Shown: one piece after another, positions 9,425 through 56,958 of the stretch
Position numbering within the stretch: the first letter of the stretch is position 1
How the letters are laid out: each line of letters begins with the position of its first letter
Virus record (IMG/VR): IMGVR_UViG_3300037847_007805
Coordinates: 1-64,000 of that record
DNA length: 64,000 nucleotides
DNA from: a virus
Direction: 5' to 3' (one strand)
Translations under genes and position numbers: made by a program
Notes under the pieces: model-generated
Told to the model about the DNA's origin: nothing
The model's input: the letters and a program-made list of their open reading frames with translations, nothing else
Database searches by the model: none

Positions 9425-9520
9425 ATTCACAAAGAAATATATCTTTTTTATTTTTAAAAATAATAATTTTTTTTTCTTTGCTTTTCACCTGTAGAATATA
9501 TATTTTTGTTAGTTATAATT

Positions 9521-12500
9521 ATGAAAAGAATAGATTTTTATGAAACATATTATAAAAATTTAAGTCCTTCGACATTTGAAGTAAAAAAAACTGATGAAAA
9601 AATTGAAATAACAGGTTTTAAAAATAAATATCCGAAAAACTTTACGGTTAAAGATGTTAAACAATTTCCTGTAAAACAACAATCTATGCAATCATACGAA
9701 AAAGGCGGACAAACTAATTTTAATCCTGACGGAGTAATGAAAGATAAAGTCGTTCACAGTTCAGGTAATGCAGGTGGAATGCTTGTAGGTAAAAGACATA
9801 GCGAAGGCGGAATAAAAGCAATTAACAAATCTACAGGTCAGCCAATAGAAATGGAAGGCGGAGAAGTTGTAATTACACGAAACGCTGTTTCTGATAACAA
9901 AAAAAGAAGTTTTAATGGCAAGATGATGACCAACCGTCAAATACTTTCAGAAATTAATCAAAGTGGTGGCGGTGTTTCTTTTGCTGATGGGGGCGAAATA
10001 CCTGACAATGTTAAATTTGATTGTAATGCTCAATATGAATACGGTGGTAAAACCATGTGTGGTAAAGATTTAGCAAAAAAAATGGCTAAAGGTGGTGCTG
10101 TAGATGATGATATGAGTGAATTAACTTCTGCTGTTCAACAAATGAATGAAATGATGCAAGAGGGTGGAGAAGTTGAAACAATTTCAGAAGAAAATTATGA
10201 GGTTCAAGTATTATATACAACAAAAGATTTTTACAAGAAATTTGTAACAATAAATTTAAAAGAAGTTAATATAAAAAATGGTTTTATAAAAAGTTTTACA
10301 CCTTTTACATTAGGAGAAGCGTTTTTTAAATCCTTGGATAATAGTTATCAAGACCTAAAACTTGATTCTGAATTTGATTTTTCTTTAAAAGATGCATCGG
10401 AAGAATATAGGATTAATGTTACAAAACAAGATATTGAAAATTTTATTTCGAGTTTAAAAGCATTTCAAGGTGTTTTAAAAGAAATAGTAGCTAACGATGA
10501 TACATATATTCAAAAAATAGATACAAAAATTGAAAGATTAAGAATAGATGGGCAACCCTATGAAGGTGCTGAAGGTTATGAAGAATCAATTTTAGAAAAT
10601 TTAGAGGGATATGGGAACTTCAACTCTACTTACATAATAAGACCCGAAGGTAGTACGAATCCTTATGATTGGTTTCCTATTTCTTCACTTGAAGGAAGGA
10701 GTAATCTTGATTATTTTGACTTTAAAAACAGTTTATATTTTACTGACCCTACAAAAGAGCCTTTGAATTTTATTACTGTTTATCCTGTAATCGGAAATCA
10801 AAATTTTCCACTTATAGATTCAAATAAGCCATTCGGTGTCGCTACTAATTTTGAAGAATTAGGAAAAGTAGTTTATGATTTAAGAAACGCAACTAAATTT
10901 CAAGAAGTTAGATATGCTTTATATCTTAATTCACAAGCAGAAAAATATGATTTTATAAATAACAATTTTTGTTTGGATATTGATGTTTTAAAAAATAAAG
11001 ATGTATTAATTTTAACTTTAAGGAAAAGAAGGTCATCTCGAGGACTTGCAGTTGCGGACTTTAAAGGAAATCCCGCAGGTTATTTTTTATATCGAACAAA
11101 AAGAATTTTTCAAAACCCAAACAAATTCTTATACTTATACAAGACAGTTAATTTGTATAAAGATGGTAATAAAATACAAACATTTTATAAAACATCAAAA
11201 TTGAATGTTTATGGTTGGACTAATTTTTCTCTTGGTTTAGATACAAGTAAAAGTGAAAAGGAAAAAATAAAATTATTAAAAAACACTCAAAAAATTAGGT
11301 CAAAGTTTATTAAAAAATATCAGACAAGTTCTATTGTACCTATGATTTTAAAAGATGAAACTGCAATAGACAAAACTATAAAATTTGAAGGTTTTGACTT
11401 TGCTTCTCAAGGAAAAAAAGGTTCAATGGCTTATAAAATCTTTCCAAGAAATGAAAAAGCATTTAACTTTGCTAAAGAAGTTGGTCTAATTGAAGCTGAT
11501 GCGGAAATACAAACCCTGATGGCTAAAGATTTATCATCACCCATAAAAAGCTATGATAAAATAATTCAATCTCTTTCAAAAGAATTAAAAATACAAAGAC
11601 CACTACTTACAAACGATGAAATAGCTTTGTATCAAAGAAAAATAACAAACTTAATTTTTAATCAAAGAAAATTACAGCAAAAACTTAATGAGCAAATTCC
11701 TTTGATTGACAGAGTTAAAAATTCTTTACAAACAAAATTTGGAGATATTAATAAAAAATATCCTGCAACTAAGTTAATGTCTATAAATGGCAAAAAATCA
11801 GAATTAACAAAACAAGAATATGAATTGGTTAGAACACAGCAATTTAAAACATTCTTCGGTGATTGGGAAACAGCTTATGAAACAGGGGACTATAACGGGT
11901 GTTCCAAAATTATTAATCAAGAAACAAAAGAACCTTTAGCTGTATTCCATGGTTCTGATACATTGTTTGCAGAGTTTCAAACTTATGAAACAAACAAATT
12001 ACATTATTTCGCTAAAAAAAGAGAAATGGCTAATTTTTTTGCTACATCTTGGAAAGAACGAGCCGATAAATCAGCACTTGATTCAGAAGCAATAAAACAG
12101 CTTAACCCAATGAAGGGTGAATTTATTTACAGGTGTTTTTTAGATATAAAAAACCCTATAGATTTTTCAAGATTTGGAATAGACCAAAGACCTATAAAGG
12201 ACTACCTAAAGTTTTTAGAAATAAATTATGATATAAGAGGTTTTGATTTCTTAATCACAGGCTCAAAGTATGGAAAATCATTTTTAGATAAAAAAGTTCC
12301 TGCTTGGTTAATTATTAGAACATGGCAAGATTTTAATTCTTACATAAATAATTTTACCCAATATGACGGTTATATTTTCTATGAATCCATACCTGAAAAA
12401 AGCCCAAAAACTATGGCTAACGCATCTTTATCATTTTGTGCATTTGAAAGCAGACAAATAAAATTAGCTGATTCAAATAATTTTAATGCACTTGTAGAAG

Positions 12501-13240
12501 ATATAAGATTTGAAAAAGGTGGTCGTACAATTAAAATTGTAAATGACGGAGTAAAGTTTGATAAGTCAAAATATAAAGCAGTTTATGGAGATTTTGATAA
12601 AGATGGTACTGTAAACATTGACGATGCTAACCCACTTGATGCAAAAAAATCAGGCAAGGTCGAACAAGTCGAACTTAAAGATACTTTTGACAAGCTATTA
12701 GGGGTTAAAGCTGAACTTGATGATATTATGTACGATGCTGTTGATACACTTGATGAAAAAGCACCATCTGATGCCGATATATATGCAAGAACTAAAACAC
12801 CGTACTCAATTCTCAAAAAACTTGTAGAAAAAAGAATGTTAGACCGTGAAAAAGGACTTACAGATATGATAGGAACAACCATTGCTGTAAAAAATCAAAA
12901 AGAACTCGAGCAAGTTAGAGATGATATTGACAATGGATTATTGGGTAAAATTTTAGACAGAGATGATTACTATAAATCTCCAAAAGCGGGATATAAGGCT
13001 TATCATTACATTGTAGATTATAAAGGTGTACCTGTTGAGGTTCAGTTAAAAACAAAAACTCAAAAGAAACTTCATGAAGCAAGTCATGATTTATATAAAA
13101 AAGGAAAATTAAATCCTTCTGAATTAAATAAAATGTCTGATTTATTTGAACAAGCTGATAGAGGAAACGCTAAAGCTAAAGCACAGGTAAATAAATTAGT
13201 AAAAAATAAAAAACAACTAACAAAAAAGATTTCTAAATGA
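9521..13240 (+). CDS. polyvalent protein: N-terminal G-H-GG/E-EGGE module, ADP-ribosyltransferase-like domain, Ca-binding-like repeat, C-terminal RelA/SpoT-type nucleotidyltransferase
   Basis: GKRHSEGG...IEMEGGEVVI; VRTQQFKTFFGDW...PLAVFHG...YFA...FLDIKNP...YDGYI...AFESRQIK; GDFDKDGTVNIDD; RTKTPYSILKK...DMIG...GYKAYH...VEVQLKT. Confidence 0.8.
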   Translation: MKRIDFYETYYKNLSPSTFEVKKTDEKIEITGFKNKYPKNFTVKDVKQFPVKQQSMQSYEKGGQTNFNPDGVMKDKVVHSSGNAGGMLVGKRHSEGGIKAINKSTGQPIEMEGGEVVITRNAVSDNKKRSFNGKMMTNRQILSEINQSGGGVSFADGGEIPDNVKFDCNAQYEYGGKTMCGKDLAKKMAKGGAVDDDMSELTSAVQQMNEMMQEGGEVETISEENYEVQVLYTTKDFYKKFVTINLKEVNIKNGFIKSFTPFTLGEAFFKSLDNSYQDLKLDSEFDFSLKDASEEYRINVTKQDIENFISSLKAFQGVLKEIVANDDTYIQKIDTKIERLRIDGQPYEGAEGYEESILENLEGYGNFNSTYIIRPEGSTNPYDWFPISSLEGRSNLDYFDFKNSLYFTDPTKEPLNFITVYPVIGNQNFPLIDSNKPFGVATNFEELGKVVYDLRNATKFQEVRYALYLNSQAEKYDFINNNFCLDIDVLKNKDVLILTLRKRRSSRGLAVADFKGNPAGYFLYRTKRIFQNPNKFLYLYKTVNLYKDGNKIQTFYKTSKLNVYGWTNFSLGLDTSKSEKEKIKLLKNTQKIRSKFIKKYQTSSIVPMILKDETAIDKTIKFEGFDFASQGKKGSMAYKIFPRNEKAFNFAKEVGLIEADAEIQTLMAKDLSSPIKSYDKIIQSLSKELKIQRPLLTNDEIALYQRKITNLIFNQRKLQQKLNEQIPLIDRVKNSLQTKFGDINKKYPATKLMSINGKKSELTKQEYELVRTQQFKTFFGDWETAYETGDYNGCSKIINQETKEPLAVFHGSDTLFAEFQTYETNKLHYFAKKREMANFFATSWKERADKSALDSEAIKQLNPMKGEFIYRCFLDIKNPIDFSRFGIDQRPIKDYLKFLEINYDIRGFDFLITGSKYGKSFLDKKVPAWLIIRTWQDFNSYINNFTQYDGYIFYESIPEKSPKTMANASLSFCAFESRQIKLADSNNFNALVEDIRFEKGGRTIKIVNDGVKFDKSKYKAVYGDFDKDGTVNIDDANPLDAKKSGKVEQVELKDTFDKLLGVKAELDDIMYDAVDTLDEKAPSDADIYARTKTPYSILKKLVEKRMLDREKGLTDMIGTTIAVKNQKELEQVRDDIDNGLLGKILDRDDYYKSPKAGYKAYHYIVDYKGVPVEVQLKTKTQKKLHEASHDLYKKGKLNPSELNKMSDLFEQADRGNAKAKAQVNKLVKNKKQLTKKISK

Positions 13241-14092: not shown

Positions 14093-15451
14093 ATGACAAA
14101 AGAAGAATTATTAGAAATAGTAAACAACCCTGATAATCCTCAAGATTTGATTGATGATGCAAAAGAGCAGATAAGTAGATTAGAAAATCTTGAAAAAAGT
14201 GAAGTAAGCGGGGTAGATGCAGATGTTAGATTTGCTGTAGAGCAGTTTAACAGAGGTATAGAACAAATAGTTACAAAAGGTGTTGATAAACAAGAGGTGG
14301 CTGAAATAGTCAATAAAGAGTTTAGAAACAGTAAAATTGGAATTGACAACCTTGATAAATCAGTAAAAGAACTTATTGGTAAATCTCAAACTGTTCAAAT
14401 CGTAAACTATGAAGGAGTAACTGTAAAAACCTCTGATGGAAAAAAGAGAAAAGTATTTGATATTATACTTTCTGATTTTGAAGCGGGTAACAACGTATAT
14501 TTATATGGGGGTGCAGGAACAGGTAAAACTTTTATTGCAGGTCAAATAGCTAAAGCAATTAACTATAAATTAGTTACACTAAACTGTAATCAATTTACAT
14601 CTCCTTTGGATATTATTGGTGGACAAACCATTGAAGGGTATCAGGAAGGTAGATTAATTACAGCTTTTGGAAATTTAGATTTAGGTGTTAATCCTGCTAC
14701 AGGAAAAGAATTTAGTGGTGCTTTGTTACTATTAGATGAATTACCAAAACTTGACCCAAATACAGCAGGTGTTTTGAATGATGGATTGTCAAAAATTAAA
14801 GACCCTATAGAAAAATCACAAACGGGGAAAATAATTCCACCAACAATTACAAACGGTAGAGGTCAAGCTATTTCTAAAGGTAAAATTTTTGTTATCGCTA
14901 CAGGGAACTCTTTATTGAATGAAGCAGATGCCGACTATGAAGCAAACTTCAAACAGGATTTATCACTTCAAGATAGATTTGCAGGAAGTACATACGAATT
15001 AATTATTGACCCTGAATATGAATTAAATAACATTTTGCAGAATATAATGGTAGATGACAAGCTGTGTAACTTTACATTTATATTTAATTTCTTGTTTAGG
15101 CTTAGAGAAGTTATTGAAAAATACGAATTTCAAGGAAGGGCTTTTGTTTCCCAAAGGCTATCAGTATCATGCAGAGATACATATATTGCTTACAGATTAA
15201 ATGAAAGAATGGGAAGTAAAAAAATACCGAATGCAAAAACACTTCAGGTAGCAATTACAACTTTCTTGAGTTTGTTTACAAGCACTCAACAAAATGCAAT
15301 CAAATCTGATATTGATGTAGATGAGTTTTTCACTTTGGTAGATGAGAAAAACAAAATGCCATTAGATAAGTTAGATACTGAAAAAGATATTGAAGAAGCT
15401 GAAATGTTAATTTCTGCGTTCCAAAAAAATAACCAAGGTAAAATTACTTAA
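14093..15451 (+). CDS. MoxR/CobS-like AAA+ ATPase
   Basis: Walker A GGAGTGKT, Walker B LLLDE, IATGN sensor, SLQDRF. Confidence 0.85.
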   Translation: MTKEELLEIVNNPDNPQDLIDDAKEQISRLENLEKSEVSGVDADVRFAVEQFNRGIEQIVTKGVDKQEVAEIVNKEFRNSKIGIDNLDKSVKELIGKSQTVQIVNYEGVTVKTSDGKKRKVFDIILSDFEAGNNVYLYGGAGTGKTFIAGQIAKAINYKLVTLNCNQFTSPLDIIGGQTIEGYQEGRLITAFGNLDLGVNPATGKEFSGALLLLDELPKLDPNTAGVLNDGLSKIKDPIEKSQTGKIIPPTITNGRGQAISKGKIFVIATGNSLLNEADADYEANFKQDLSLQDRFAGSTYELIIDPEYELNNILQNIMVDDKLCNFTFIFNFLFRLREVIEKYEFQGRAFVSQRLSVSCRDTYIAYRLNERMGSKKIPNAKTLQVAITTFLSLFTSTQQNAIKSDIDVDEFFTLVDEKNKMPLDKLDTEKDIEEAEMLISAFQKNNQGKIT

Positions 15452-16998
15452 TGAATAGAACCAATTACATATACTATTCTTTTGACCCCGTTAAAGATAT
15501 AATGGCGGGTATGAAAACTGTTGAAGATAGAAATTTAGAAAGATGGACAACTCTAAGAAAAATTCAAGCAGATAATTCAAAACAATGGGAAGATACTAAC
15601 TTTTCAGGAAGAAAAATTGGAAGTAAGGATTCTGTAGAAAAACAATTTGACCTTGAAGATGGTCTTTCAAAATTTATAAGCACTCGACTTTTAAAACAAC
15701 TTGAAGATGCTTATGATACTGTTTTATCTGAAGTGGATTTGGGCGGTAATATACTTCCAAGCAGAATAAAATTTTCTTCTAAACCCATGGGTATTTTTGA
15801 CTTTGGTCAAGCATCAAAAGGTTTAATTAGACCTGTAGAGTTTTTTTCTACTGTAGACAATAAAATAATAAACCCTAAAGTGGTCAATAAAGAAACTAAA
15901 GGTGGTGAAAATTTATTTTATTACTTGAAAAAAACAGAAAAGATTTATGTTCAAAGAAGGCAAGAGGGTACAACTAAAATGGTTGATAATTGTCCTGAAT
16001 TGGATATAAAACAAAATAATAAACTAAAACTATTTTTACCTTACAGGGGAAATGAAATAGTAAATGAATGTAAAGGATTTAGATTGAGGTACACCTCTAC
16101 GAACCCCAAAGTTTATGCATATAGAGAAAAATTAGGTGGGGGAACAACTCCGTATGTTGATTTATATATAGCGATGGGGGGAGTATATGACCAAAACCCT
16201 GAATCAATGTCTATTAGAAGCGTACCTAACTTACTTTTAGCAAGAACTCTTGAAAACGCAGGAGTTAAAGTAAGAATTTTTGGTTTGTGGAGTACGGGAA
16301 ATAGGAATGATATTTTCTCAATCGCTTTGCTTATAAAAAATTATGGTGAATCAGTATCTACAAACCAATTAGCTATTTTATGTGCTGATACAAGGTTTTA
16401 CAGATATTGGCTTTCTATTTCAGCTAAAGGTATGATATATGATAAATTTGGTGTAGAAAAACCTGTCTTTGAAGGTACGGGTACTTTGAGAACTGAAGAT
16501 ATAAATGATTATATAATGCCAAGATTGAGAAATTTCACATTGTATAATATACAAGACGGAAAATTTCCTTCACAGCTTGTAAATAAACGACTAATAGTAT
16601 TTGTTCCTCTTGATGCAGATTCAGACGATAAAATTGATAGTGAAGAAGTAAGAAAACAAATTAAAGAAACTTATACAAAATTTGTAGATTATATATGTTT
16701 AGAGTTTTCGATTAACCCTGCTAAAGTAATTAAAGATATTCGAGTAAGACAGAATGAAGAAGGAATGAGTGCGAGTGAAACAAAAAGATATTTAAGAGAA
16801 GCTATTGCAAACGTATATAAAACAACAAGAGAATATAAGGGTAGTGATTTAGAATTGACAGATTCTGAAAAAATAGAACAAGCTGATAATATATTAGATA
16901 AAGAAAATCAATATATATTAGATACTCAAGATGGATATGAAGATACTGAAAAGAGTAGGGAAAAATTATTTGAAATTATAAACAAAACAATAAAATGA
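15451..16998 (+). CDS. putative VWA-like (CobT-like) partner of the AAA+ ATPase
   Basis: coupled to AAA gene; VDLYIA...LARTLENAGVKVRI...IKNYGE...FYR pattern; no canonical MIDAS. Confidence 0.5.
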   Translation: MNRTNYIYYSFDPVKDIMAGMKTVEDRNLERWTTLRKIQADNSKQWEDTNFSGRKIGSKDSVEKQFDLEDGLSKFISTRLLKQLEDAYDTVLSEVDLGGNILPSRIKFSSKPMGIFDFGQASKGLIRPVEFFSTVDNKIINPKVVNKETKGGENLFYYLKKTEKIYVQRRQEGTTKMVDNCPELDIKQNNKLKLFLPYRGNEIVNECKGFRLRYTSTNPKVYAYREKLGGGTTPYVDLYIAMGGVYDQNPESMSIRSVPNLLLARTLENAGVKVRIFGLWSTGNRNDIFSIALLIKNYGESVSTNQLAILCADTRFYRYWLSISAKGMIYDKFGVEKPVFEGTGTLRTEDINDYIMPRLRNFTLYNIQDGKFPSQLVNKRLIVFVPLDADSDDKIDSEEVRKQIKETYTKFVDYICLEFSINPAKVIKDIRVRQNEEGMSASETKRYLREAIANVYKTTREYKGSDLELTDSEKIEQADNILDKENQYILDTQDGYEDTEKSREKLFEIINKTIK

Positions 16999-17858
16999 TA
17001 GGATTAGATGGATTAGCATATATTGATAAAGAAATTAACCCTGTAATTGTTGTCGGTTTAGTTGATTTTATAGATAAGAAGTATTTAGTTCTAAATACTC
17101 CACCTCTTAATGGCGAATTTGGGAGTTATTTTTCTGAAACATATAATAATATAGATTCGATTATGAGGGCTTGTGAATTGTCTGTATTATCACAAGAGGA
17201 AATAATTAGAAGGGACGATAATTCTTCTATTGTATGGGGTACAAGGTCAAATGAATTAGATTTAGGCGATATTGTTTTTTATAATTTTAAAAAATATACG
17301 GTTATAGGACGGGTCTTAAACACCTATGCTCAACTTAATATACAAACTCCTGTTTTATTTAGTATGGACAGAATGTTTGAGGAATATAAAAATTTATTGT
17401 ATTCAAAGTATTCAGATGATGAGATACTAAATATAATTAACGATAAGCTAAAAGGGGGGGAATACAAAGATGATTTTGTATTGCCTTTTACTAATTCTGA
17501 AGATGAAAACTCTTGGGGTGAAAAAATCAAATTAGTTAAAAATTATAATAGGGAAGCCTATTCAAAAATTATTCAAAATTTAAATGATAGATATTTTGAA
17601 TTTGAAGAAAAAAGGCAAACTAAGGATTTTTTAAAGGACTTTTTATTAACTCGACAAGATGAAAAATTAGAAATTTTAGCAGATAGAAAGCCTGAATTTT
17701 ATGAATCGTTTGTGAGGCTTATCAACGTAGTAAACAACAAAATATATAGTCAAGAAAAAGGAATGGCTCAAGTCGAACCTGAAATTCTTGATTTTGAAAA
17801 AATGATGGAAGAAGAATTAGATTTTGAATCATTAATGGAAGAACAACTTGGGGAATAA
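16995..17858 (+). CDS. hypothetical protein
   Basis: ATGA-coupled ORF. Confidence 0.65.
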   Translation: MIGLDGLAYIDKEINPVIVVGLVDFIDKKYLVLNTPPLNGEFGSYFSETYNNIDSIMRACELSVLSQEEIIRRDDNSSIVWGTRSNELDLGDIVFYNFKKYTVIGRVLNTYAQLNIQTPVLFSMDRMFEEYKNLLYSKYSDDEILNIINDKLKGGEYKDDFVLPFTNSEDENSWGEKIKLVKNYNREAYSKIIQNLNDRYFEFEEKRQTKDFLKDFLLTRQDEKLEILADRKPEFYESFVRLINVVNNKIYSQEKGMAQVEPEILDFEKMMEEELDFESLMEEQLGE

Positions 17859-17888: not shown

Positions 17889-20800
17889 ATGAGTGCAAAA
17901 GCAAAATACGAAAGTTTAGATAGAAGTAAATTGGACAAAGGGGTTCTAAAACTTCTCGATGTTATGAAGAAAAAAACAGACAACTTTGAAAACAAAGAAG
18001 TTGTAAAAGCATCTAAAGTAGAAGGTGCTTTGGATAAGCTGATAGCTAAATATCCTGATGCTGTTAAAAAGTCAAAGCCAAAAGCTAAAGCCAAGCCAAA
18101 AGCAAAGGCGAAAGCAAAAGCTAAATCTACAGGTTCTCCTAAAAAAGAAACTGTAATGACTGTGGCTAAAAGAATTAGAAAGGACGGAGAAAAATGGCAA
18201 GATGCACTCAAAAGAGCCAAAGCAGAAATGGGTAAAGAAACCAAAAAATCTAAATCTGCTGTTGAATCTGAAATGGATAAATTAAAGAAACTAATTGCCG
18301 AAGATAGTGTTCTAAAAGGATTTCAAAAATCTGACTTACAAAGAGATTCTGTAAGAAAAGCTAAACCAAGAGGAAAAAGAAAATCTACTACCAAAGGTGA
18401 AACTACTAATCAATATGGTACATTCAAAAATAAAGTTGGTAGACCTTATTGGGAAAGCAGAGAAAATCGTTCTGATAGATATGCACCAAAATATCCTGCT
18501 AACAAACCATTTTTAGAAGATGGTGGAGTAATTGTAGGTGGTTCAACAGTTCTTAGAAACAATGCCGATATAATGGATTTAGGAATTGCTAATTCTGATG
18601 CTGTATTTAAGCACGGTGGGGCAATACATAAAATGAGAAAAGAAAAAGATATTGACATTTACGAAGAACAAATGAAACATGGTGGTAAAACGCATGGTTC
18701 AGATTGTGGCTGTAAAACCTGTATGGAAAAAGGTGGTATGGTTGAGTATGCTATTTTAGAAGATTATGATGGGAATGACATAGAAAAAATGAAGTTTCCA
18801 AAACCAATAATTGAAAGTGAAGTAGTAGAGCCAATGGGTTATTCATTAGCTGATATTGAGGAAGATGAAGATGGAGTTCTTTATGCAAGATTTCAGCAAG
18901 ATGATGAATTTGCTAAAGGTGGAAGAATGAAGCAAGGTTACAATGACCGATTAGACGAAAGTTTAGGTATGCGTGATGGTGTCGAACCTATGATGATGCA
19001 ATCTTACAAAGACCGTAGAGATGAATCCAAAGGAATGGAAAAAGCTATGGGTCGTAGAGCATATCAATCGGTTGGCACAATGGATAAAATGGGTCATGGT
19101 GGTATGATGCAAGGTTACAACGATAGATTAGATGAAAGTTTAGGTATGCGTGATGGTGTCGAACCTATGATGATGCAATCTTACAAAGACCGTAGAGATG
19201 AATCCAAAGGAATGGAAAAAGCTATGGGTCGTAGAGCATATCAATCTGTGGGTACTATGGACAAAATGGGCATGGGTGGATATTTATTAGCGGGTGGCAC
19301 AGGTGCTTATTTAGGTGCTAAATATCCTGATAAAGTAAAAAAAGTAACTGACCCGTTAGATAAAGCTGTTGAAGATATAAATAGAAACTTAAGAAATAGA
19401 TATGAAGATGGCGGACTTGTAGTAGGTGGCTCAACAGTCCTAAGAGATAACGGAGATATTATGCCCTTGGGAACTGCTAATGCCGATGCAGTATTTCAGA
19501 CAGGTGGAGTTACAGCCCAAACTGTTGTAAACCCAAATGAAGCGATGGCTGATTTACAAAGCACTTATGGTTTTGATGATGTTTATGCTAAAGGTGGGAA
19601 GATAAAAATTAGGAATGGCAAGGTAGTAAAAACCGATATAATTCACGAAAAGGAATCGTTAGGTTTGCCATTTCGAATTGTTTATTCTAAATTTTTAAGA
19701 GCAAATGATATTTCTGAATCATCTTTGTCATTGGCAGATTCACTTGAACTTGAAACTATTGCGTTAAATGAGTGGGAAAAAAGTAATAAAACCTACGCTA
19801 AAGGGGGTTATATTGTTGAATGGTATGAAAATGACCAAAATAATTTTGAATACTTTGATAGCAACGAACTTAATGAGGCAAAGGACTTCTATAAATTTAT
19901 TAAAGACGAAAAATTCTATTACGAGAAACCTAAAGTGGTTTTAACTTCAAGAAGTGATGGAGAAGTATTAATGGGTAAAAAATTTGCTAAAGGTGGTAAA
20001 ATTGATGTAAGTAATTATAAAATCAATTATTTTGAAACTGAAAGCGATAGAGATAGTGGCGAATCTCAACAATTTGATTCTTTTGAAACTGATTATGATG
20101 CTTTCATAAATGATGCAAGACGTTTATATAAAAGAGATGGAATGGAAGCTGTTGAGGTTTTAAACGAAAAAGGAGAAACAGTCGTAATTTTTGATAATGA
20201 CACTCCCGATGGAGAATTTTATATGACTAAACCTTCCAAAAAATCTTCTAAATTAGAAGTTGGAGAATTTCAAGTAGGCAAAAGGGTAGGATTTATAAAT
20301 ACTCCACACGATGAAAGAGTTGGTGAAATTGTGGGAGAAGAACAGAATGGTAAATACCCTGTTAAATTAAAAAGCAAAATACACCAAGGATTTGAAGATA
20401 GAAAAGGTGAGCCAAAACTCATAAAAAGAGAGAACTTAATTAGATTATATAGTAGATGGGACGAAAGGGAAGAATTGGAGAAAAAATTTGATAGCGAAAT
20501 GAAAAGAATTTCACCTAAACAAATAGATAGGATTAAAAAAGAGTATGAAAAATATGAAGATATGCTCTCTCCTAAAAGGGATAATCCCGAATTTCAGGAA
20601 TTTTTTGTCAGAGAATCCCAAAAAATATCCATGGCTAAAGGTGGGAAGATTGATAATATGATAGGTAAAAAAGTTAAAGTTGATTTCAGAAAAGAGGTAG
20701 GCAAAATAATAAATATAGAAAATGATGATGTTACTGTTTTTTATCCTGAATTGGGATTTTCAGAAGTATTAGATGCTAAAGCAGTAGAAATTGTTTTTTT

Positions 20801-22004
20801 ACCAAATAAATTCGCTAAAGGTGGGGAGATTGATGGATTTACTATGAGCATGGTCAAATCAAGTGGAGATGTTACAAAAGTTGAAACCGAAGATGCTAAA
20901 ATCAAAATGGCTAAAGGTGGTATAGTAAAAAACCAAGATGAAAACCATTTATTGCGAACTGCAATAGGTTATTCAATAAGTAAAGGTAATCTTGATAAAG
21001 AAGATAGAAAAAAATTAACTGAAATATACAATAGGTTAGTTAGTTCAAAATTTCATTATGCTAAAGGTGGTAAAGTTGATGACTTAGGAAACCCAACAGA
21101 CCCAAAAGTCATTTCACAAATGGAAAAATTTATAAAAGAAAAAATGCCTAAATTGGATAAGGATAGATTTTTTACAGATGGAATGAAAAGAAAAGAAGCA
21201 AAAAGAATGTTCTATGAAAAATATGGTTATGGTGCTTATAACCCAAGGTTTTCAATTTTTGAAAAAGGTGGAAGGACAATGTATGATGCACCACCAAGTA
21301 AAATAGGTAAAGTGAAATTTTCTTTAGCAAAGGGTAGAGATTTTGACATAATTGTTCCTGAAGGTAAATTCAGGATTTTACGAATCCCCCCTTTTGATTT
21401 ACCAACAGAAGTTGTCGATATGAATAAAGGAAAAAATTTCCAAAAAACTCCCGTAAATGATAGTAAAATTGCTCAAAAATATCAAAAAGAAATTCAAGAG
21501 TATTTAAATATGGATAGTACAAGATTTGAAAAAGGTGGTAAAATAGGATTTGAAGCATTGTCAAAAAAAGTTGCTAAAAGATATGTTGGCAAAAAAGTTC
21601 CTAAAAAATTCCAAAATCAATATGGTAAAACATATAGTCCTGCCGAAGCAAAAGAAGTTGGAGATAAAGTAGCAGGTGCAGTATACAGAATGCAACAGGC
21701 TAAAAAAATGGCTAAAGGTGGTAAAACACAAGGGTACAATGATAAACTTGATGAAAGTTTAGGAAACACCAAAGGGAAGCGTTCTACTAAAGAGCAAAAC
21801 TATAAAGACCGCAGAAATGAATCCGAAGCAATGGAGAAAAAGGGCGGTAAAAGAAAGTATGCCCGTGTGAAAACAATGGATAAAGGTTCAAGAAAAAAGA
21901 AGCCAAATAGCTTTTTTGCTGTTGTAAAAAGAAAGCAGAAAAAAGGAGAGGCTTGGCAAGATGCTATTCAAAGAGTAAAAAAAGAAATGAAAATGAATAA
22001 ATAA
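17889..22004 (+). CDS. giant modular protein punctuated by [MFYL]xxGG motifs (putative core/cargo polyprotein)
   Basis: about 19 motif copies separating short modules; basic termini; internal duplications. Confidence 0.8.
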   Translation: MSAKAKYESLDRSKLDKGVLKLLDVMKKKTDNFENKEVVKASKVEGALDKLIAKYPDAVKKSKPKAKAKPKAKAKAKAKSTGSPKKETVMTVAKRIRKDGEKWQDALKRAKAEMGKETKKSKSAVESEMDKLKKLIAEDSVLKGFQKSDLQRDSVRKAKPRGKRKSTTKGETTNQYGTFKNKVGRPYWESRENRSDRYAPKYPANKPFLEDGGVIVGGSTVLRNNADIMDLGIANSDAVFKHGGAIHKMRKEKDIDIYEEQMKHGGKTHGSDCGCKTCMEKGGMVEYAILEDYDGNDIEKMKFPKPIIESEVVEPMGYSLADIEEDEDGVLYARFQQDDEFAKGGRMKQGYNDRLDESLGMRDGVEPMMMQSYKDRRDESKGMEKAMGRRAYQSVGTMDKMGHGGMMQGYNDRLDESLGMRDGVEPMMMQSYKDRRDESKGMEKAMGRRAYQSVGTMDKMGMGGYLLAGGTGAYLGAKYPDKVKKVTDPLDKAVEDINRNLRNRYEDGGLVVGGSTVLRDNGDIMPLGTANADAVFQTGGVTAQTVVNPNEAMADLQSTYGFDDVYAKGGKIKIRNGKVVKTDIIHEKESLGLPFRIVYSKFLRANDISESSLSLADSLELETIALNEWEKSNKTYAKGGYIVEWYENDQNNFEYFDSNELNEAKDFYKFIKDEKFYYEKPKVVLTSRSDGEVLMGKKFAKGGKIDVSNYKINYFETESDRDSGESQQFDSFETDYDAFINDARRLYKRDGMEAVEVLNEKGETVVIFDNDTPDGEFYMTKPSKKSSKLEVGEFQVGKRVGFINTPHDERVGEIVGEEQNGKYPVKLKSKIHQGFEDRKGEPKLIKRENLIRLYSRWDEREELEKKFDSEMKRISPKQIDRIKKEYEKYEDMLSPKRDNPEFQEFFVRESQKISMAKGGKIDNMIGKKVKVDFRKEVGKIINIENDDVTVFYPELGFSEVLDAKAVEIVFLPNKFAKGGEIDGFTMSMVKSSGDVTKVETEDAKIKMAKGGIVKNQDENHLLRTAIGYSISKGNLDKEDRKKLTEIYNRLVSSKFHYAKGGKVDDLGNPTDPKVISQMEKFIKEKMPKLDKDRFFTDGMKRKEAKRMFYEKYGYGAYNPRFSIFEKGGRTMYDAPPSKIGKVKFSLAKGRDFDIIVPEGKFRILRIPPFDLPTEVVDMNKGKNFQKTPVNDSKIAQKYQKEIQEYLNMDSTRFEKGGKIGFEALSKKVAKRYVGKKVPKKFQNQYGKTYSPAEAKEVGDKVAGAVYRMQQAKKMAKGGKTQGYNDKLDESLGNTKGKRSTKEQNYKDRRNESEAMEKKGGKRKYARVKTMDKGSRKKKPNSFFAVVKRKQKKGEAWQDAIQRVKKEMKMNK
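18933..19270 (+). repeat. 177-bp tandem duplication encoding QGYNDRLDESLG...GTMDK
   Basis: near-identical DNA copies starting at 18933 and 19110; diverged third copy at ~21729. Confidence 0.9.
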
Positions 22005-26373: not shown

Positions 26374-26695
26374 ACCTACAAATCAAACAGCAGAAACTAC
26401 AGGGGCTGAAGCAGTAGCCTCTCAAGATACAGCAGGGGCAGTAGATAGTACAAGCCCTTCGCCATCTAATTTTGAAGAAGGTGGTGAATTAAAAGCAGGT
26501 GGGGAATACTCACTTGTATATTATTTGACATTTGCATTATTACTTTCTGCATCAGCTTATAGTATTTATTATCATAGACAGGCATTAAACAAATTAATGG
26601 ACGATGATAATGATGAACTAAAAAGAGAAGTGCGTGAAGTAAAATCTAATCTTAAAAAATTAATGGGCAACAAGTATGAAATTATCACTAAATAA
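26363..26695 (+). CDS. membrane protein
   Basis: FEEGG motif followed by TM helix and coiled coil. Confidence 0.65.
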   Translation: MENKPTNQTAETTGAEAVASQDTAGAVDSTSPSPSNFEEGGELKAGGEYSLVYYLTFALLLSASAYSIYYHRQALNKLMDDDNDELKREVREVKSNLKKLMGNKYEIITK

Positions 26696-34506: not shown

Positions 34507-34770
34507 ATGGAAAAGTCAGCAAATCAATTATGGAGAGAAAGCGGTACTTCATTATCTTTTAAAGATTGGATTCAAAGAGAGAAAGATAAAGGTGTACAAA
34601 TAAAAAACAAACTCCTTGAAAATGTTGTCGATTCGTTTAAAGAAACTGACGAACAAGACACAATAGATACAACAAGGTTTGCCTTTGGAATACCAAAATG
34701 GGTAGTTTATACAGGTGTTTCAATTTTAACCTTTGCTGTTGTATATAAACTTTACAAAGCCAAAAAATGA
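34507..34770 (+). CDS. C-terminally anchored protein
   Basis: SFKDWI; C-terminal TM + KAKK. Confidence 0.7.
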   Translation: MEKSANQLWRESGTSLSFKDWIQREKDKGVQIKNKLLENVVDSFKETDEQDTIDTTRFAFGIPKWVVYTGVSILTFAVVYKLYKAKK

Positions 34771-35555
34771 ATTTAAGGATTAATACCCGATATGAAGAAC
34801 TATCCTTGGCTATATATGTACAAACACTTGCACCCTGCAAAATCAGGATAAAAGTTTTTGATGCAGAACAGCCTAAAACTGTTTTTACCGACAGGTATAA
34901 AACCGTAAAAGGAAAAGAGGTTTTTTATGTCAGAATGCCCTTAACTTCAAGCAAGGTAATTGTAAGCATATACAACGAAGCTGTTGGAAATAAAAGGAAA
35001 GGCGAAGATAGTAGCTTTATTGTTACAGAGGTCAAAAAACTTCCGTTGCAAAAAAGAACAGATGTTGGCGATATAAAAGATTATACCGTTTCAGCTTTTG
35101 TAGATTTTGCACAAAGGTTTTCATTTAATGCCTCGTATTTAGACGACAATAAAACTTATCAGAGCCAAAGCGGAGAGTTTTTGATAGAGTATTTACCAAA
35201 TATAGTTAGTTCAAAAACAGGGAAAAAAATGAAAACCCCTGCTCGAATTTCCAAAGTAAATGGTAGAATACAAGTATCAAAAGAAGCGTTTGACACATAT
35301 ACTGTACCTATGCGTATGGCTATATTGTTACACGAATTTTCCCACTTTTATTTAAATGATAATATGGACGATGAGGTTGAAGCTGACCTTAATGGTCTTT
35401 TAATCTATTTAGGCTTGGGCTATCCAAGGATAGAAGGTTATCAGGCTTTTTTAGAGGTGTTTCAAGAAAGTCCATCACAACAGAACAGAAACCGTTATGA
35501 TATTATAAATAAATTCATAAGGGATTTTGAGAATAATAAAATGGTAATGAATTAA
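34767..35555 (+). CDS. zincin-type metallopeptidase
   Basis: AILLHEFSH (HExxH) followed by EVEAD. Confidence 0.7.
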   Translation: MNLRINTRYEELSLAIYVQTLAPCKIRIKVFDAEQPKTVFTDRYKTVKGKEVFYVRMPLTSSKVIVSIYNEAVGNKRKGEDSSFIVTEVKKLPLQKRTDVGDIKDYTVSAFVDFAQRFSFNASYLDDNKTYQSQSGEFLIEYLPNIVSSKTGKKMKTPARISKVNGRIQVSKEAFDTYTVPMRMAILLHEFSHFYLNDNMDDEVEADLNGLLIYLGLGYPRIEGYQAFLEVFQESPSQQNRNRYDIINKFIRDFENNKMVMN

Positions 35556-54558: not shown

Positions 54559-55101
54559 ATGGGAGTATATTCACCATCAACAACATCTTTTCCTAACGGG
54601 GTGGTTACTATAGAAAGTGAAGATGACACTTTGTATAGCACCATTCAAGAAGCTGTTGCAGGTTCTCATAACTACCAAATCAATGAAATTTACCTAAAAG
54701 CAAACGACATATCCCAAATCCTACAGCCGATTACTTTTCAAAAGTATGATTCAAATGGAGATATTCTTGAGGATAAAAGAGTTCCCACAGTAGACCCATT
54801 TTCATTTCAACCTTCTATAAAAATAAATTTTAAAAACAAGGATTATATTTTAGATGGTCGCTTAGAAATAGATTATACAGTCAAAGGTGGAGAAGAAGTT
54901 TATTTCTATTTAGATACGACTGTGTTAGACAATGGTGCATTACTTGGCGATGATAAAAGTATGCCGAAAGATTTTTTGAAAACATATAATTTTTTCCAAG
55001 ATTACGGAAAAGAAATAGAAATTGATTTTAGTTATGACGAAAGGGCAATACCTGAATGCACAGACCAAGAGGCGAGTGATTTCAGGACTGAAAACAGGTG
55101 A
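54559..55101 (+). CDS. paralog of the capsid candidate (minor capsid/vertex protein)
   Basis: SQILQPI...DSNG...VPTVDPFSFQ...YILDG...VYFY aligns with NQILETI...DANG...VPTIDPYQQQ...YRIDG...VKLYFY. Confidence 0.65.
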   Translation: MGVYSPSTTSFPNGVVTIESEDDTLYSTIQEAVAGSHNYQINEIYLKANDISQILQPITFQKYDSNGDILEDKRVPTVDPFSFQPSIKINFKNKDYILDGRLEIDYTVKGGEEVYFYLDTTVLDNGALLGDDKSMPKDFLKTYNFFQDYGKEIEIDFSYDERAIPECTDQEASDFRTENR

Positions 55102-55486
55102 TTTAGTTAAACTTCGTTCAGAATACATTTTTTTGCCTTTTGTATTTCACTATGGAATCATAAGTTTAGAAGATGGTAAAATATATATTTACCACTCAAT
55201 TACCGACAAAGAAAATAAACATGGTGGTAATTTAGTAAGAGAAGATTTTGAGCAAGTAATAAAAGGTAGAGAAATTTTAGCTGTAGAAAGTTTAGATATA
55301 AAAAAAGAAAATTTTTATAATACCTTAGATAAATTACAAAAAAGAAAATATGATGTGTTTACAAATAACTGTGAGCATTTTGTTAATTTTATAAAAGAAA
55401 AAAGATTTGTTTCAAATCAACTTAAAACTTGGGGTTTAGCAGTTTCCCTTGGGATAGTTGTATATTTATTTATTAAGAAAAAATGA
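55022..55486 (+). CDS. LRAT/PLAAT-like permuted NlpC/P60 thiol hydrolase with C-terminal TM
   Basis: GDLV, HYGI...IYH, YDVFTNNCEHFV; start uncertain. Confidence 0.8.
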   Translation: MILVMTKGQYLNAQTKRRVISGLKTGDLVKLRSEYIFLPFVFHYGIISLEDGKIYIYHSITDKENKHGGNLVREDFEQVIKGREILAVESLDIKKENFYNTLDKLQKRKYDVFTNNCEHFVNFIKEKRFVSNQLKTWGLAVSLGIVVYLFIKKK

Positions 55487-56958
55487 GTTACAAAGAAGCC
55501 ATAAGTTTAAAACTAACAAATAACACTTCTATTGACCAACCCATTGGAATACTTGGGGGGCAATCTTCTACATATCAAAACTCAAATAATAACATTTTAG
55601 TTGAGTGGGATTTAGCAGGTGAAACTTTTTCTGCCACAACTGTTACTCTTGATACTACTGTGCCTGTTACGGTAGATTTGCCTTCTCAAAACATACAGGG
55701 AGTAGTAGAAGCGTTAAATACAACAGATAAAGCTATCTTTACTACTTCAGGAACAAAAGTTTATGCAACATCTTTAAGAGATAGTAGTGTTCAATCCGCA
55801 GATATAAGTGTTGGTACAAGTGGAACATATTTAGCAAAGGTTTTAGGAACAACTGCCGATAGTGTTAATTTTACTCAATTTTCTCCGTCATCTGTAATTA
55901 GTGCATTTGAAAGTGCCACAACAAATACAGGAACAACTTTATACATAGACCCAAGTGATACAATTACTGTAGGGACACAGCTTTATGATGATTCTTTTGG
56001 AAATACCGCATCAACAGTAACGCAGTTTGCAACTCAAGGACTTGGCTCTAACCCAAATGTGCTTACTATTCATAATGGAATTATAACAGAAGTAACTCCC
56101 CGAGGTAACTTAACTAATAATTTTTCGAGGGATATAACTGCGATGCCTAATTTTAATAAATCTACAGTTTTTACAGGAACTACGGGGCAGACGGGTAAAT
56201 TCATAAAACAATGGGTGCTTTCAACAAATGGTAAATATGTATTTGCCATTGAAGATAATGCTGTAATTTACAGATGGACATTTACAACCGCATGGGATTT
56301 TTCGACATTTGATAATACTTCAACTACCTCGCTTGACTTAACAGGTCTTGATGGTTCTGTAGGCACTCAAAAAGGATTGGCTATAAACCCCATTGGAAAT
56401 AAATTATATTTTTATGATAATGGTAATGGTGGCTATAGAAGTGTTAGTTTAAGCACTCCGTTTGATTTATCAACTGCTACGTTAGATAGTTTTACAGCTA
56501 ACGTAAGTACAGCAAGACAAATTTGTTGGAATAATGATGGCACATCTTTAGTGGGTATTGATAAAACTGCGGGTATTAATATAAGTGCTTATTCAACACC
56601 TTTTGATTTATCTTCATATCAATCTAATCAGAATGAGCCGACTATGACAACCTACATAAACCCCTCAAAAAGTAATGCATCATGTGAGAGTTTAATTATT
56701 TCGCCTGATGGGACTAAATGGTATGTACTGTTTTTCGCTGTTGGTACTCCGAATGAATTTGAAACCATACAGGTAGATATTAGTAGTTATAGCGATATAA
56801 CAACACTAAACCAAACAGACAACAATAGGCAATTCGATGGAATATCAGAGGTTACAAATGGCTTGTGGTGGAATGAAAATCAAACTGAATTATTTTTCCA
56901 CCAATCAGCAAATGGTGGTGATAATGATATTTATAGAGTTGATTTCCCTGCACCTTAA
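55483..56958 (+). CDS. putative spike/receptor-binding protein with beta-propeller repeats
   Basis: TTAWDFST, LSTPFDLST, YSTPFDLSS repeats with NPIGNK/NNDGT/SPDGTK turns. Confidence 0.65.
   Translation: MSYKEAISLKLTNNTSIDQPIGILGGQSSTYQNSNNNILVEWDLAGETFSATTVTLDTTVPVTVDLPSQNIQGVVEALNTTDKAIFTTSGTKVYATSLRDSSVQSADISVGTSGTYLAKVLGTTADSVNFTQFSPSSVISAFESATTNTGTTLYIDPSDTITVGTQLYDDSFGNTASTVTQFATQGLGSNPNVLTIHNGIITEVTPRGNLTNNFSRDITAMPNFNKSTVFTGTTGQTGKFIKQWVLSTNGKYVFAIEDNAVIYRWTFTTAWDFSTFDNTSTTSLDLTGLDGSVGTQKGLAINPIGNKLYFYDNGNGGYRSVSLSTPFDLSTATLDSFTANVSTARQICWNNDGTSLVGIDKTAGINISAYSTPFDLSSYQSNQNEPTMTTYINPSKSNASCESLIISPDGTKWYVLFFAVGTPNEFETIQVDISSYSDITTLNQTDNNRQFDGISEVTNGLWWNENQTELFFHQSANGGDNDIYRVDFPAP

What the first reader, a model, noticed from the sequence alone, without database searches (positions are those of the whole stretch)
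17889..22004. Giant protein built of cassettes separated by about 19 [MFYL]-x-x-G-G motifs: candidate Gly-Gly-cleaved phage polyprotein system
Seen, in order: LEDGG, FKHGG, MKHGG, MEKGG, FAKGG, MGHGG, MGMGG, YEDGG, FQTGG, YAKGG, YAKGG, FAKGG, MAKGG, FAKGG, MAKGG, YAKGG, FEKGG, FEKGG, MAKGG. The segments between motifs are mostly unrelated to one another. Where segments are duplicated (the QGYNDRLDESLG unit, the VGGSTVLR.N.DIM.LG.AN.DAV unit), the duplication runs from one motif to the next, so the motif is the unit boundary. Established: adenovirus protease and the ASFV SUMO-like protease cleave virion precursors after Gly-Gly, and ubiquitin/SUMO end in GG. Inference: this ORF is an expandable array of core/injected mini-proteins released by a GG-specific protease, or the motif is a repeated packaging signal.
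Basis: partly seen in the sequence, partly recalled or inferred. Interest (0 to 1): 0.9.

Follow-up and report, generated by a model that had tools for sequence, protein, structure and literature searches.

The report
Gly-Gly junctions in viral cassette protein
A 1371-residue protein of an uncultured marine virus is a string of about 18 small interchangeable modules joined by one conserved aromatic-Ala-x-Gly-Gly peptide; relatives gain, lose and move modules exactly at that peptide, which looks like a protease cutting signal, but cutting has not been shown.

Summary
All 19 listed motifs are present in the stated order. [MFYL]xxGG occurs 21 times against 1.9 expected. In this 79-kb virus genome the motif is confined to this ORF and the ART/RelA-SpoT protein at 9506-13240.

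The ORF belongs to a large family from uncultured viruses. It has a conserved N-module and C-module around a shuffled array of cassettes. The junctions share the consensus k-[FYM]-[AE]-x-G-G-x-[ILVT].

- Cassettes are the units of homology.
- Clean indels between close relatives are whole cassettes in register with the motif.
- One RelA-SpoT cassette sits in a different gene in relatives, still joined at a junction.
- Known domains (RelA_SpoT, Zeta_toxin, LPD11, DUF2958, ART-PolyVal) each lie inside one cassette.
- In an AlphaFold model all seven junctions fall in low-confidence coil between small folded units.

This is a "polyvalent protein" (Iyer et al. 2017) with a junction peptide I could not find described in the literature. 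Cleavage at the junction is the most likely function (about 0.4) but is unproven.

No adenain/Ulp1-type or C39 protease was detected. The only candidate peptidase found in all 14 relatives is an M48-like zincin (34767-35555). The 55022 thiol enzyme is in 6 of 14.

This scan has reported the same kind of Gly-Gly junction on other DNA (e1-5932213, e1-5952629).

The parts
17889..22004 (+). ORF of the 1371-aa cassette-array (polyvalent-type) protein P0001
   Evidence: 236 homologs at E <= 0.001
17889..18527 (+). Conserved basic N-module (residues 1-213). It contains a KPKAKAK repeat and a 'GEKWQDALKRA' helical element, and ends at LEDGG
   Evidence: segment cluster 1, present in 89 of 121 proteins; repeat
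18528..21722 (+). Variable cassette array (residues 214-1278): about 18 cassettes of 17-216 aa
21723..22001 (+). Conserved C-module (residues 1279-1371): a QGYNDKLDES unit plus a terminal helix pair ...KKGEAWQDAIQRVKKEM
   Evidence: cluster 5 in 68 proteins; conserved C-termini; helices with pLDDT about 90
18513..18527 (+). junction LEDGG (res 209)
18606..18620 (+). junction FKHGG (res 240)
18672..18686 (+). junction MKHGG (res 262)
18723..18737 (+). junction MEKGG (res 279)
18909..18923 (+). junction FAKGG (res 341)
19089..19103 (+). junction MGHGG (res 401)
19266..19280 (+). junction MGMGG (res 460)
19401..19415 (+). junction YEDGG (res 505)
19494..19508 (+). junction FQTGG (res 536)
19584..19598 (+). 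junction YAKGG (res 566)
19794..19808 (+). junction YAKGG (res 636)
19983..19997 (+). junction FAKGG (res 699)
20631..20645 (+). junction MAKGG (res 915)
20811..20825 (+). junction FAKGG (res 975)
20907..20921 (+). junction MAKGG (res 1007)
21057..21071 (+). junction YAKGG (res 1057)
21258..21272 (+). junction FEKGG (res 1124)
21525..21539 (+). junction FEKGG (res 1213)
21708..21722 (+). junction MAKGG (res 1274)
18927..19275 (+). Tandem duplication (2 x 177 nt) of the QGYNDRLDESLG cassette, junction to junction
   Evidence: 93% matches; 91% between the two copies
9506..13240 (+). Second motif-bearing polyvalent protein P0124 (1244 aa). It has an N-terminal Gly-Gly-rich region, an ART-PolyVal domain (res 809-994), the junction FEKGG (res 1002-1006, nt 12509-12523), and then a RelA_SpoT cassette (nt 12524-13237)
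14093..17858 (+). Three genes conserved in position between the two polyvalent genes: a MoxR/CobS-like AAA+ ATPase, a DUF7192-like 515-aa protein and a 287-aa protein. Their link to the array is unknown
34767..35555 (+). P0122, the candidate processing peptidase: an N-terminal beta-sandwich plus an M48-like zincin domain with an invariant HExxH...E
55022..55486 (+). P0123: LRAT/PPPDE-like thiol enzyme with a C-terminal hydrophobic tail. A weaker protease candidate
56955..57758 (-). RecT-family single-strand annealing recombinase. It could mediate cassette exchange at the short junction repeats (inference)

Best explanation
ORF 17889-22004 encodes a polyvalent-type effector carrier of an uncultured marine virus.

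Shown:
- A conserved basic N-module and a conserved C-module bracket about 18 small cassettes that are mostly unrelated to one another.
- Every cassette is joined to the next by one linear junction peptide, consensus k-[FYM]-[AE]-x-G-G-x-[ILVT].
- The junctions lie in flexible linkers between independently folding mini-domains.
- Cassettes are gained, lost, duplicated, reordered and moved between two genes exactly at the junction.

Inferred: the junction is a recognition site for a virus-encoded endopeptidase. The best candidate is the universally conserved M48-like zincin at 34767-35555. It would cut the array into separate mini-proteins and enzymes after synthesis or packaging. One carrier with one set of end modules could then deliver many independent anti-host factors.

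Also inferred: the near-invariant junction DNA (GCTAAAGGTGG core within about 31-nt repeats), together with the virus's RecT recombinase, supplies the short homology for in-frame cassette exchange.
For: Enrichment and restriction of the motif:
- 21 matches against 1.9 expected.
- Confined to the two polyvalent genes.
- The 11-mer GCTAAAGGTGG occurs 9 times against 0.02 expected, only in these two genes and always in frame.

Family-wide conservation:
- Most of the 120 listed homologs carry about 6-20 strict copies.

Cassettes as evolutionary units:
- 63% of inter-protein HSPs cover at least 80% of both segments, and architectures are shuffled between fixed ends.
- Clean indels between close relatives are single cassettes that start at AKGG.
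- The RelA_SpoT cassette of P0124 is 80% identical to copies inside the array genes of L013 and L010. The ART proteins of several relatives stop 2-4 residues after the same junction.

Domain boundaries:
- RelA_SpoT, Zeta_toxin, LPD11, DUF2958 and ART-PolyVal each lie within one cassette.
- LPD11 sits within 3-4 residues of its flanking motifs.
- In the AF2 model of residues 905-1371, all 7 junctions lie in segments with pLDDT below 50. Three of these are short dips between confident elements.

Selection acts at the protein level:
- F/Y/M (TTT/TAC/ATG) interchange, and position +2 is I/L/V/T.
- Position -1 differs by lineage (K, D or N), as expected if the recognition partner is virus-encoded.

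Cassettes can work alone: LPD11 is a 70-aa stand-alone gene in Cellulophaga phage phi17:2.

Candidate enzymes:
- P0122 is present in 14 of 14 relatives.
- Its HExxH...E is invariant.
- Its model is confident (pLDDT 90), and its C-domain is closest to the M48 peptidases BepA (Z 8.6) and Ste24.
- RecT is present.

Precedent from the literature:
- Processing of polyvalent proteins has been proposed, and phage P1 DdrB is processed before packaging (PMC5512222).
- A 2811-aa polyvalent protein is an abundant virion component of phage phi24B (bioRxiv 10.64898/2026.04.10.717836).
Against: - No experimental or proteomic evidence of cleavage exists for any family member, and no cultured relative is available.
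- Nothing links P0122 specifically to the junction. P0122 is a core gene of the whole lineage, so its co-occurrence with the array says little.
- I found no pocket residue in P0122 that covaries convincingly with the K/D preference at position -1.
- Earlier first-reader notes propose a different motif ([FY]xN[AV]xG in structural proteins) as the zincin's substrate.
- Several cassettes are only 17-30 aa, so cutting would yield peptides of unclear use.
- The N- and C-modules are always terminal, which would also fit an uncut protein.
- The codon bias at the junction (Ala GCT 87% against 42% elsewhere; first Gly GGA 4% against 36%) shows a nucleotide-level constraint. That could by itself preserve part of the motif.
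- Packaging of this protein into virions is inferred from its class only.
Confidence: 0.4

Rival explanations
1. The array is not cut. The junction is a multivalent linear docking motif. An aromatic or Met 'sticker' plus a Gly-Gly hinge is bound by a virus-encoded partner such as a packaging adaptor, a chaperone like the neighbouring AAA+ ATPase, or the capsid or membrane interior. Alternatively the motifs make cohesive contacts with each other. Either way the whole basic protein would be recruited and held in the particle as one chain carrying many small effector beads.
For: - The motif is a conserved linear peptide in disordered linkers, which fits a binding motif as well as a cleavage site.
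- ART-protein homologs keep a complete motif (through position +2) at their very C-terminus, with nothing downstream.
- Some stand-alone small ORFs start MAKGG.
- Very short spacers of 17-30 aa are natural for multivalency.
- The N- and C-modules are fixed at the ends.
- The protein is strongly basic, with 202 Lys in 1371 residues.
- Position -1 varies by lineage, which suggests a co-evolving viral partner.
Against: - No binding partner has been identified.
- Motifs near protein termini are no more frequent than the overall motif density predicts: 15% against about 12% at N-termini, and depleted at C-termini.
- Unrelated enzymes (ART, RelA-SpoT, Zeta-type kinase) tethered in one chain of 1400-2800 aa would have to act while still attached.
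Confidence: 0.27
2. The junction has no recognition role. It is a flexible hinge whose sequence persists because it is the short-homology site at which cassettes recombine in frame, so it is copied along with them. This would resemble the conserved demarcation motifs of polymorphic toxins.
For: - Synonymous sites at the junction are far more uniform than codon usage predicts.
- There are 9 exact copies of GCTAAAGGTGG and 8 copies of a 31-nt repeat at 71-84% identity to a reference copy.
- All clean indels are in register with the junction.
- One cassette has moved between genes at a junction.
- The genome encodes RecT.
Against: - The hydrophobic position alternates F/Y/M with unrelated codons, and position +2 alternates I/L/V/T. 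What is conserved there is the residue type, not the DNA.
- The exact DNA core is only 11-14 nt.
- The GGA depletion at the first Gly could simply be avoidance of an internal AAGGAGG (my inference).
- The motif persists across lineages whose N-modules are only 30-45% identical.
Confidence: 0.15
3. One reading: a Gly-Gly-specific thiol protease cuts directly after Gly-Gly, as in adenovirus, ASFV or ubiquitin processing. The enzyme would be adenain/Ulp1-like, or the LRAT/PPPDE-like protein at 55022-55486.
For: - P0123 matches LRAT (25.0 bits, cut-off 24.3).
- It matches the PPPDE peptidase family C97 below its cut-off (22.5 bits against 29.2). It also has an NCEHF motif.
- PPPDE/DeSI enzymes act after the Gly-Gly of SUMO (established knowledge).
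Against: - P0123 homologs are found in only 6 of 14 related records, and in 4 of 7 that are at least 90% complete. All 14 carry motif arrays.
- Pfam C48, C5 and C39 models find nothing in the genome.
- The motif spacing differs from (M/L/I)-x-G-G.
- P0123 has a C-terminal hydrophobic tail typical of LRAT/PLAAT lipid enzymes.
Confidence: 0.08

Closest known systems
Polyvalent proteins of phages and conjugative elements (Iyer, Burroughs, Anand, de Souza, Aravind 2017, J Bacteriol, PMC5512222)
   Same: - A giant virus-encoded protein that strings together unrelated effector domains.
- Family members and the neighbouring gene carry ART-PolyVal, RelA_SpoT, LPD11, DUF2958 and Zeta-type kinase domains.
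- That paper proposed proteolytic release of domains.
   Different: - P0001 itself has no Pfam, PHROG or NCBIfam domain.
- No metallopeptidase (MPTase) hub was found inside the protein. The zincin is a separate gene.
- Cassettes are unusually small and numerous.
- Every joint carries one conserved Gly-Gly junction peptide. The words 'linker' and 'glycine' do not occur in that paper.
- The motif strings FAKGG, YAKGG and MAKGG gave no relevant paper in the library.
Gly-Gly-X processed polyproteins of ASFV (pp220/pp62, protease pS273R) and adenovirus precursor proteins (adenain)
   Same: There are many products in one chain, a short conserved Gly-Gly site at each boundary, and a strongly basic precursor. 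This is a resemblance in how it may work, and it rests on established knowledge of those systems.
   Different: - No clan-CE protease was detected.
- The motif spacing is hydrophobic-x-x-G-G rather than (M/L/I)-x-G-G.
- Cleavage has not been shown.
- The virus class here is unresolved.
Demarcation motifs of polymorphic toxins (VENN in CdiA, DPxGL in Rhs)
   Same: A short conserved peptide marks the point where variable modules are exchanged by recombination. In Rhs the motif is also a cleavage site (established knowledge).
   Different: Those systems have one motif and one variable C-terminal toxin per protein. Here up to 27 junctions separate a whole array, and the system is viral rather than a bacterial competition system.
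Polyubiquitin precursors
   Same: Head-to-tail units each end in Gly-Gly. Some related proteins end with a junction followed by a 2-4-residue cap.
   Different: The units here are unrelated to each other and to ubiquitin, and no deubiquitinase-type enzyme is conserved. This is an analogy only.

Membership tests
Polyvalent proteins (Iyer et al. 2017) | One polypeptide of a phage or conjugative element that combines several unrelated effector or enzymatic domains | tested here: met
   Family members that share P0001's end modules and cassettes carry RelA_SpoT, Zeta_toxin/AAA_33, LPD11 and DUF2958. For P0001 itself, the modules are shown to be independent by clustering and by the fold model, not by a known function.
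Polyvalent proteins (Iyer et al. 2017) | Presence of 'large polyvalent-protein-associated' (LPD) or PolyVal-type domains | tested here: met
   LPD11 scores E = 2.9e-30 in the array protein of relative L039. ART-PolyVal is in the neighbouring P0124. Neither is found in P0001 itself.
Polyvalent proteins (Iyer et al. 2017) | Zincin-like MPTase domain within the polyvalent protein (frequent, not universal) | tested here: not met
   No peptidase domain was found in P0001 or in six large relatives scanned with Pfam. A separate zincin gene (P0122) is present instead.
Polyvalent proteins (Iyer et al. 2017) | Packaged in the particle and delivered into the host with the DNA | not testable with these tools
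   No cultured relative is available. The only support is by analogy, from phi24B gp47 found in virions.
Gly-Gly-cleaved viral polyproteins (adenain / ASFV pS273R type) | Virus-encoded clan-CE cysteine protease | tested here: not met
   Pfam Peptidase_C48 and Peptidase_C5 give no match at E <= 1 in the whole 79-kb genome. This holds at Pfam sensitivity only.
Gly-Gly-cleaved viral polyproteins (adenain / ASFV pS273R type) | Site consensus (M/L/I)-x-G-G|x or G-G-x | tested here: inconclusive
   Gly-Gly is invariant, but the hydrophobic residue lies one position further upstream ([FYM]-[AE]-x-G-G).
Gly-Gly-cleaved viral polyproteins (adenain / ASFV pS273R type) | Demonstrated cleavage into mature products | not testable with these tools
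   This needs proteomics or an in vitro assay.
Double-glycine leader / C39 peptidase systems | C39 peptidase domain and an N-terminal leader ending in Gly-Gly | tested here: not met
   No Peptidase_C39 match in the genome. The motifs are internal and repeated, not single N-terminal leaders.
M48-type zincin peptidases (for P0122) | HExxH plus a downstream Glu, and the zincin fold | tested here: met
   H189, E190, H193, E203 and E205 are invariant in 42 sequences. In the AF2 model (pLDDT 90.3), residues 109-256 align to BepA (Z 8.6, 120 residues aligned, rmsd 4.0), to chain 3c37_B (Z 6.9) and to Ste24 (Z 6.7). No Pfam, NCBIfam or PDB sequence match exists, so this is fold-level similarity, not family membership by sequence.

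The most novel reading that the evidence does not exclude
A bacterial virus uses a true polyprotein strategy. One carrier protein is an evolvable library of dozens of mini-effectors, namely enzymes and peptide-sized inhibitors. A virion-module metalloprotease releases them at [FYM]-A-x-G-G sites. The same junction, at DNA level, is the in-frame recombination joint that lets related viruses trade single effectors, even between genes. It would be a prokaryotic-virus counterpart of ASFV and adenovirus Gly-Gly processing, but with a zincin instead of a clan-CE protease.
Probability: 0.3. Interest if true: 0.8.

Novelty: new variant of a known kind. Interest (0 to 1): 0.55.

Why it matters
It has been proposed since 2017 that polyvalent proteins are cut into separate anti-host factors, but no cutting sites were known. 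Here the putative sites are exact, numerous and conserved across hundreds of uncultured viruses. The idea can therefore be tested with short peptides, or with a two-cassette mini-array plus one candidate zincin.

If the sites are cut, each of the roughly 190 cassette clusters seen here is a candidate stand-alone mini-protein, possibly an anti-defence factor. The junction would then be a simple rule for parsing such proteins in metagenomes.

If they are not cut, the motif is a new multivalent signal in virus particles.

Either way, the junction explains how these proteins diversify: whole cassettes are exchanged in frame.

Tried and rejected
**Database searches on P0001**
- Pfam, PHROGs and NCBIfam gave no family.
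- The PDB sequence search gave nothing.
- tblastn against 50,697 GenBank phage records gave no match, and megablast of 14-26 kb gave none.
- An ESM Atlas search with the N-module gave no usable hit.

**Complex prediction:** P0122 against a 56-residue piece with two junctions returned 'no answer' (score 0.02). This is not evidence either way.

**Covariation:** I compared the lineage-specific residue at position -1 (K or D) with columns of 15 P0122 sequences. Only clade-specific differences appeared, with no convincing charge swap near the active site, and the comparison is confounded by phylogeny.

**M23 peptidase at 62280-62801:** M23 enzymes can cut Gly-Gly bonds, so I considered it as a candidate. 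I rejected it as a general processing enzyme because it is found in only 1 of 14 relatives, the near-identical one.

**Other proteases:** no clan-CE or C39 protease was detected.

**Terminal motifs:** motifs near protein ends did not turn out to be enriched over the background density, so I do not use them as evidence for precursor-type trimming.

**Internal translation starts or Shine-Dalgarno sites at the junction:** rejected by my own reasoning. F and Y codons cannot start translation, and no start codon follows at a fixed distance.

**Virus class**
- The Pfam portal, HK97-capsid, A32-ATPase and protein-primed PolB models found nothing.
- No terminal inverted repeat was found in this record, although two relatives are classed as having them.
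- The class stays unresolved.

**Fold searches with P0122:** Foldseek against the PDB and against viral models was dominated by the N-terminal beta-sandwich.

Full report
**1.

The window is the first 64 kb of a 79,409-bp IMG/VR virus record that CheckV rates complete. GC is about 30%.

ORF 17889-22004 (+) encodes 1371 aa.

| Measure | Result |
|---|---|
| [MFYL]xxGG matches in the ORF | 21 |
| Same pattern in 5000 shuffles | mean 1.9, maximum 10 |
| Tighter pattern, this ORF | 17 |
| Tighter pattern, ORF 9506-13240 | 4 |
| Tighter pattern, all other ORFs | one each in two ORFs |
| GCTAAAGGTGG in the window | 9 exact copies, 0.02 expected |

All nine copies of the 11-mer lie in these two genes, on the + strand and in frame.

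The two internal duplications run from junction to junction. One is a 177-nt tandem repeat at 18927-19275. The other is the VGGSTVLR unit.

**2. What the protein is**

P0001 has no hit in Pfam, PHROGs, NCBIfam or the PDB. It does have 236 homologs at E <= 0.001 in metagenomes. Most of them share only 5-10% of the query, at about 70% identity. Many carry RelA_SpoT or Zeta_toxin/AAA_33 domains.

Most of the listed homologs have about 6-20 strict copies of the motif. A logo over 2071 Gly-Gly sites gives k-[FYM]-[AE]-[K>D]-G-G-[KE]-[ILVT].

I cut the 121 proteins at the motif and clustered the 1807 segments.
- Segments are the units of homology: 63% of inter-protein HSPs cover at least 80% of both segments.
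- The architectures have a fixed N-module (cluster 1, 89 proteins).
- They also have a fixed C-module that ends ...AKEIRKEGEKWQDAVKRA...KK.
- The cassettes in between are shuffled, repeated and replaced.

Clean indels between close relatives are whole cassettes that begin at AKGG. Examples are P0005/P0006, P0011/P0012 and P0001/P0003.

Known domains each lie inside a single cassette:
- RelA_SpoT sits in a 245-aa cassette.
- Zeta_toxin sits between two canonical junctions.
- LPD11 sits 3-4 residues from its flanking motifs.
- DUF2958 ends before its first motif.
- In the neighbouring P0124, ART-PolyVal (809-994) and RelA_SpoT (1095-1200) are separated by FEKGG at 1002.

LPD11, DUF2958 and ART-PolyVal place the family among the polyvalent proteins of Iyer et al. 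2017 (PMC5512222).

**3. Cassettes move between genes**

In several relatives the ART protein stops 2-4 residues after its terminal junction, for example ...RFEKGGKI and ...RFDLGGIL.

In L013 and L010 the RelA_SpoT cassette lies inside the array gene. In this genome a copy 80% identical to those is attached to the ART protein at exactly that junction.

In other relatives the array is split into two genes, or reaches about 2840 aa with 27 motifs.

**4. Structural context**

I modelled residues 905-1371 with AlphaFold2 on a 40-row alignment. Mean pLDDT is 58. The model shows:
- a beta-hairpin cassette;
- two helical-hairpin cassettes;
- a three-helix cassette with pLDDT 94;
- a confident C-terminal helix pair.

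All seven junctions fall in segments with pLDDT below 50. Three of these are short dips (model residues 104-111, 151-159 and 305-313) between confident elements.

The motifs therefore lie between folded units, not inside them. The model is shallow for several cassettes, so this is moderate evidence.

**5. What maintains the motif**

Part of the constraint is on the protein.
- The hydrophobic position alternates F/Y/M with unrelated codons, and position +2 is aliphatic.
- Position -1 differs by lineage: K in this genome, D or N in others. This points to a virus-encoded recognition partner.

Part of the constraint is on the nucleotides.

| Junction position | Codon | At junctions | Elsewhere in the genes |
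|---|---|---|---|
| Ala | GCT | 87% | 42% |
| Lys | AAA | 100% | 86% |
| First Gly | GGA | 4% | 36% |

The GGA depletion may reflect avoidance of an internal AAGGAGG (my inference).

The genome also encodes RecT. Short-homology exchange at the junction is therefore plausible (inference).

**6. Who could cut**

| Candidate | Result |
|---|---|
| Clan-CE (C48, C5) or C39 peptidase | no match in the genome |
| M23 peptidase, 62280-62801 | present in 1 of 14 relatives |
| P0123, 55022-55486 (LRAT/PPPDE-like) | present in 6 of 14 relatives |
| P0122, 34767-35555 | present in 14 of 14 relatives, about 60% identity |

More on P0122:
- It has 1378 homolog clusters.
- Its HExxH...E is invariant.
- Its model is confident (pLDDT 90.3). 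It has an N-terminal beta-sandwich and a C-domain closest to the M48 peptidases BepA (Z 8.6) and Ste24.

P0122 is the best candidate, but nothing ties it specifically to the junction.
- The covariation test was inconclusive.
- The complex prediction gave no verdict.
- Earlier first-reader notes suggest a different motif as its substrate.

**7. Verdict**

The modular architecture, and the junction as the unit boundary, are shown. Cleavage at the junction is the most economical reading of a conserved eight-residue linear motif in linkers between unrelated modules. One such module (LPD11) exists as a stand-alone 70-aa gene in Cellulophaga phage phi17:2. Even so, cleavage remains an inference, and I put it at about 0.4.

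A non-cleaved multivalent docking motif (about 0.27) and a hinge kept mainly as a recombination joint (about 0.15) are not excluded.

I found no paper that describes the motif.

This scan has already reported the same kind of Gly-Gly junction in other genomes (e1-5932213, e1-5952629). The P0122-type zincin has look-alike stretches in windows of 12 genomes of the scan.

The virus class is unresolved. No tailed-phage or A32-type hallmark was detected. Two relatives are classed as having inverted terminal repeats.

Noticed in passing
window 34767-35555 (+): P0122 is one of the most conserved genes of this virus lineage: about 60% identity across relatives, and 1378 homolog clusters. It has an N-terminal CBM/jelly-roll-like beta-sandwich and an M48-like zincin domain. 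No Pfam or PDB sequence match exists, and no homolog was found in GenBank phage records.
   Followed up: yes
window 56955-57758 (-): A RecT-family single-strand annealing protein (E = 6e-31). It is a possible agent of short-homology cassette exchange.
   Followed up: partly
related records G001 and G002 (loci L006, L011): IMG/VR classes two complete relatives (72.5 and 68.8 kb) as having inverted terminal repeats. I found none in this record. No portal, HK97 capsid, A32 ATPase or protein-primed PolB was detected by Pfam, so the virus class is open.
   Followed up: partly
window 14093-17858 (+): Three genes are conserved in position between the two polyvalent genes in 12-19 related loci. They are a MoxR/CobS-like AAA+ ATPase, a 515-aa protein whose nearest ESM Atlas clusters carry DUF7192, and a 287-aa protein. 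Their role is unknown.
   Followed up: partly
window 9506-10200 (+), N-terminus of P0124: A Gly-Gly-rich N-terminal region (GGMLVGKRHSEGGI...MEGGEVVI) is conserved, at 48-69% identity, near the start of the ART-type proteins in 14 loci. It matches no known family.
   Followed up: no
loci L014, L024, L031, L035, L039 (relatives): In some relatives the array is split into two adjacent genes at a conserved break. Gene A ends ...LPMPxSxTHKND. Gene B starts MKLFNKTIDRQLF, which is a DUF2958 domain.
   Followed up: partly
proteins P0019, P0028, P0265, P0269 (homologs): Four different family members end identically with ...GGKIGYRE. That is a stop a few residues into the widespread KIGF... cassette, which suggests a recurrent break or insertion point inside that cassette.
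   Followed up: no
window 40053-51371 (+): A 3772-aa ORF lies in a segment of higher GC (37-39% against about 30% elsewhere). I did not examine it.
   Followed up: no
window 51460-51909, 36414-36893, 38781-39344, 26676-27326 (+): Pfam matches that are unusual for a virus of this kind: APS-kinase-like P-loop kinase, an annexin repeat, LEA_2, and a PAP2 phosphatase.
   Followed up: no
window 17889-22004, residues 88-117 and 1340-1368 of P0001: The same roughly 28-residue helical element (..AKRIRKDGEKWQDALKRAKAEM.. and ..VKRKQKKGEAWQDAIQRVKKEM..) occurs in both the N-module and the C-terminus. The C-terminal copy is nearly universal in the family and may be a targeting or binding element.
   Followed up: partly
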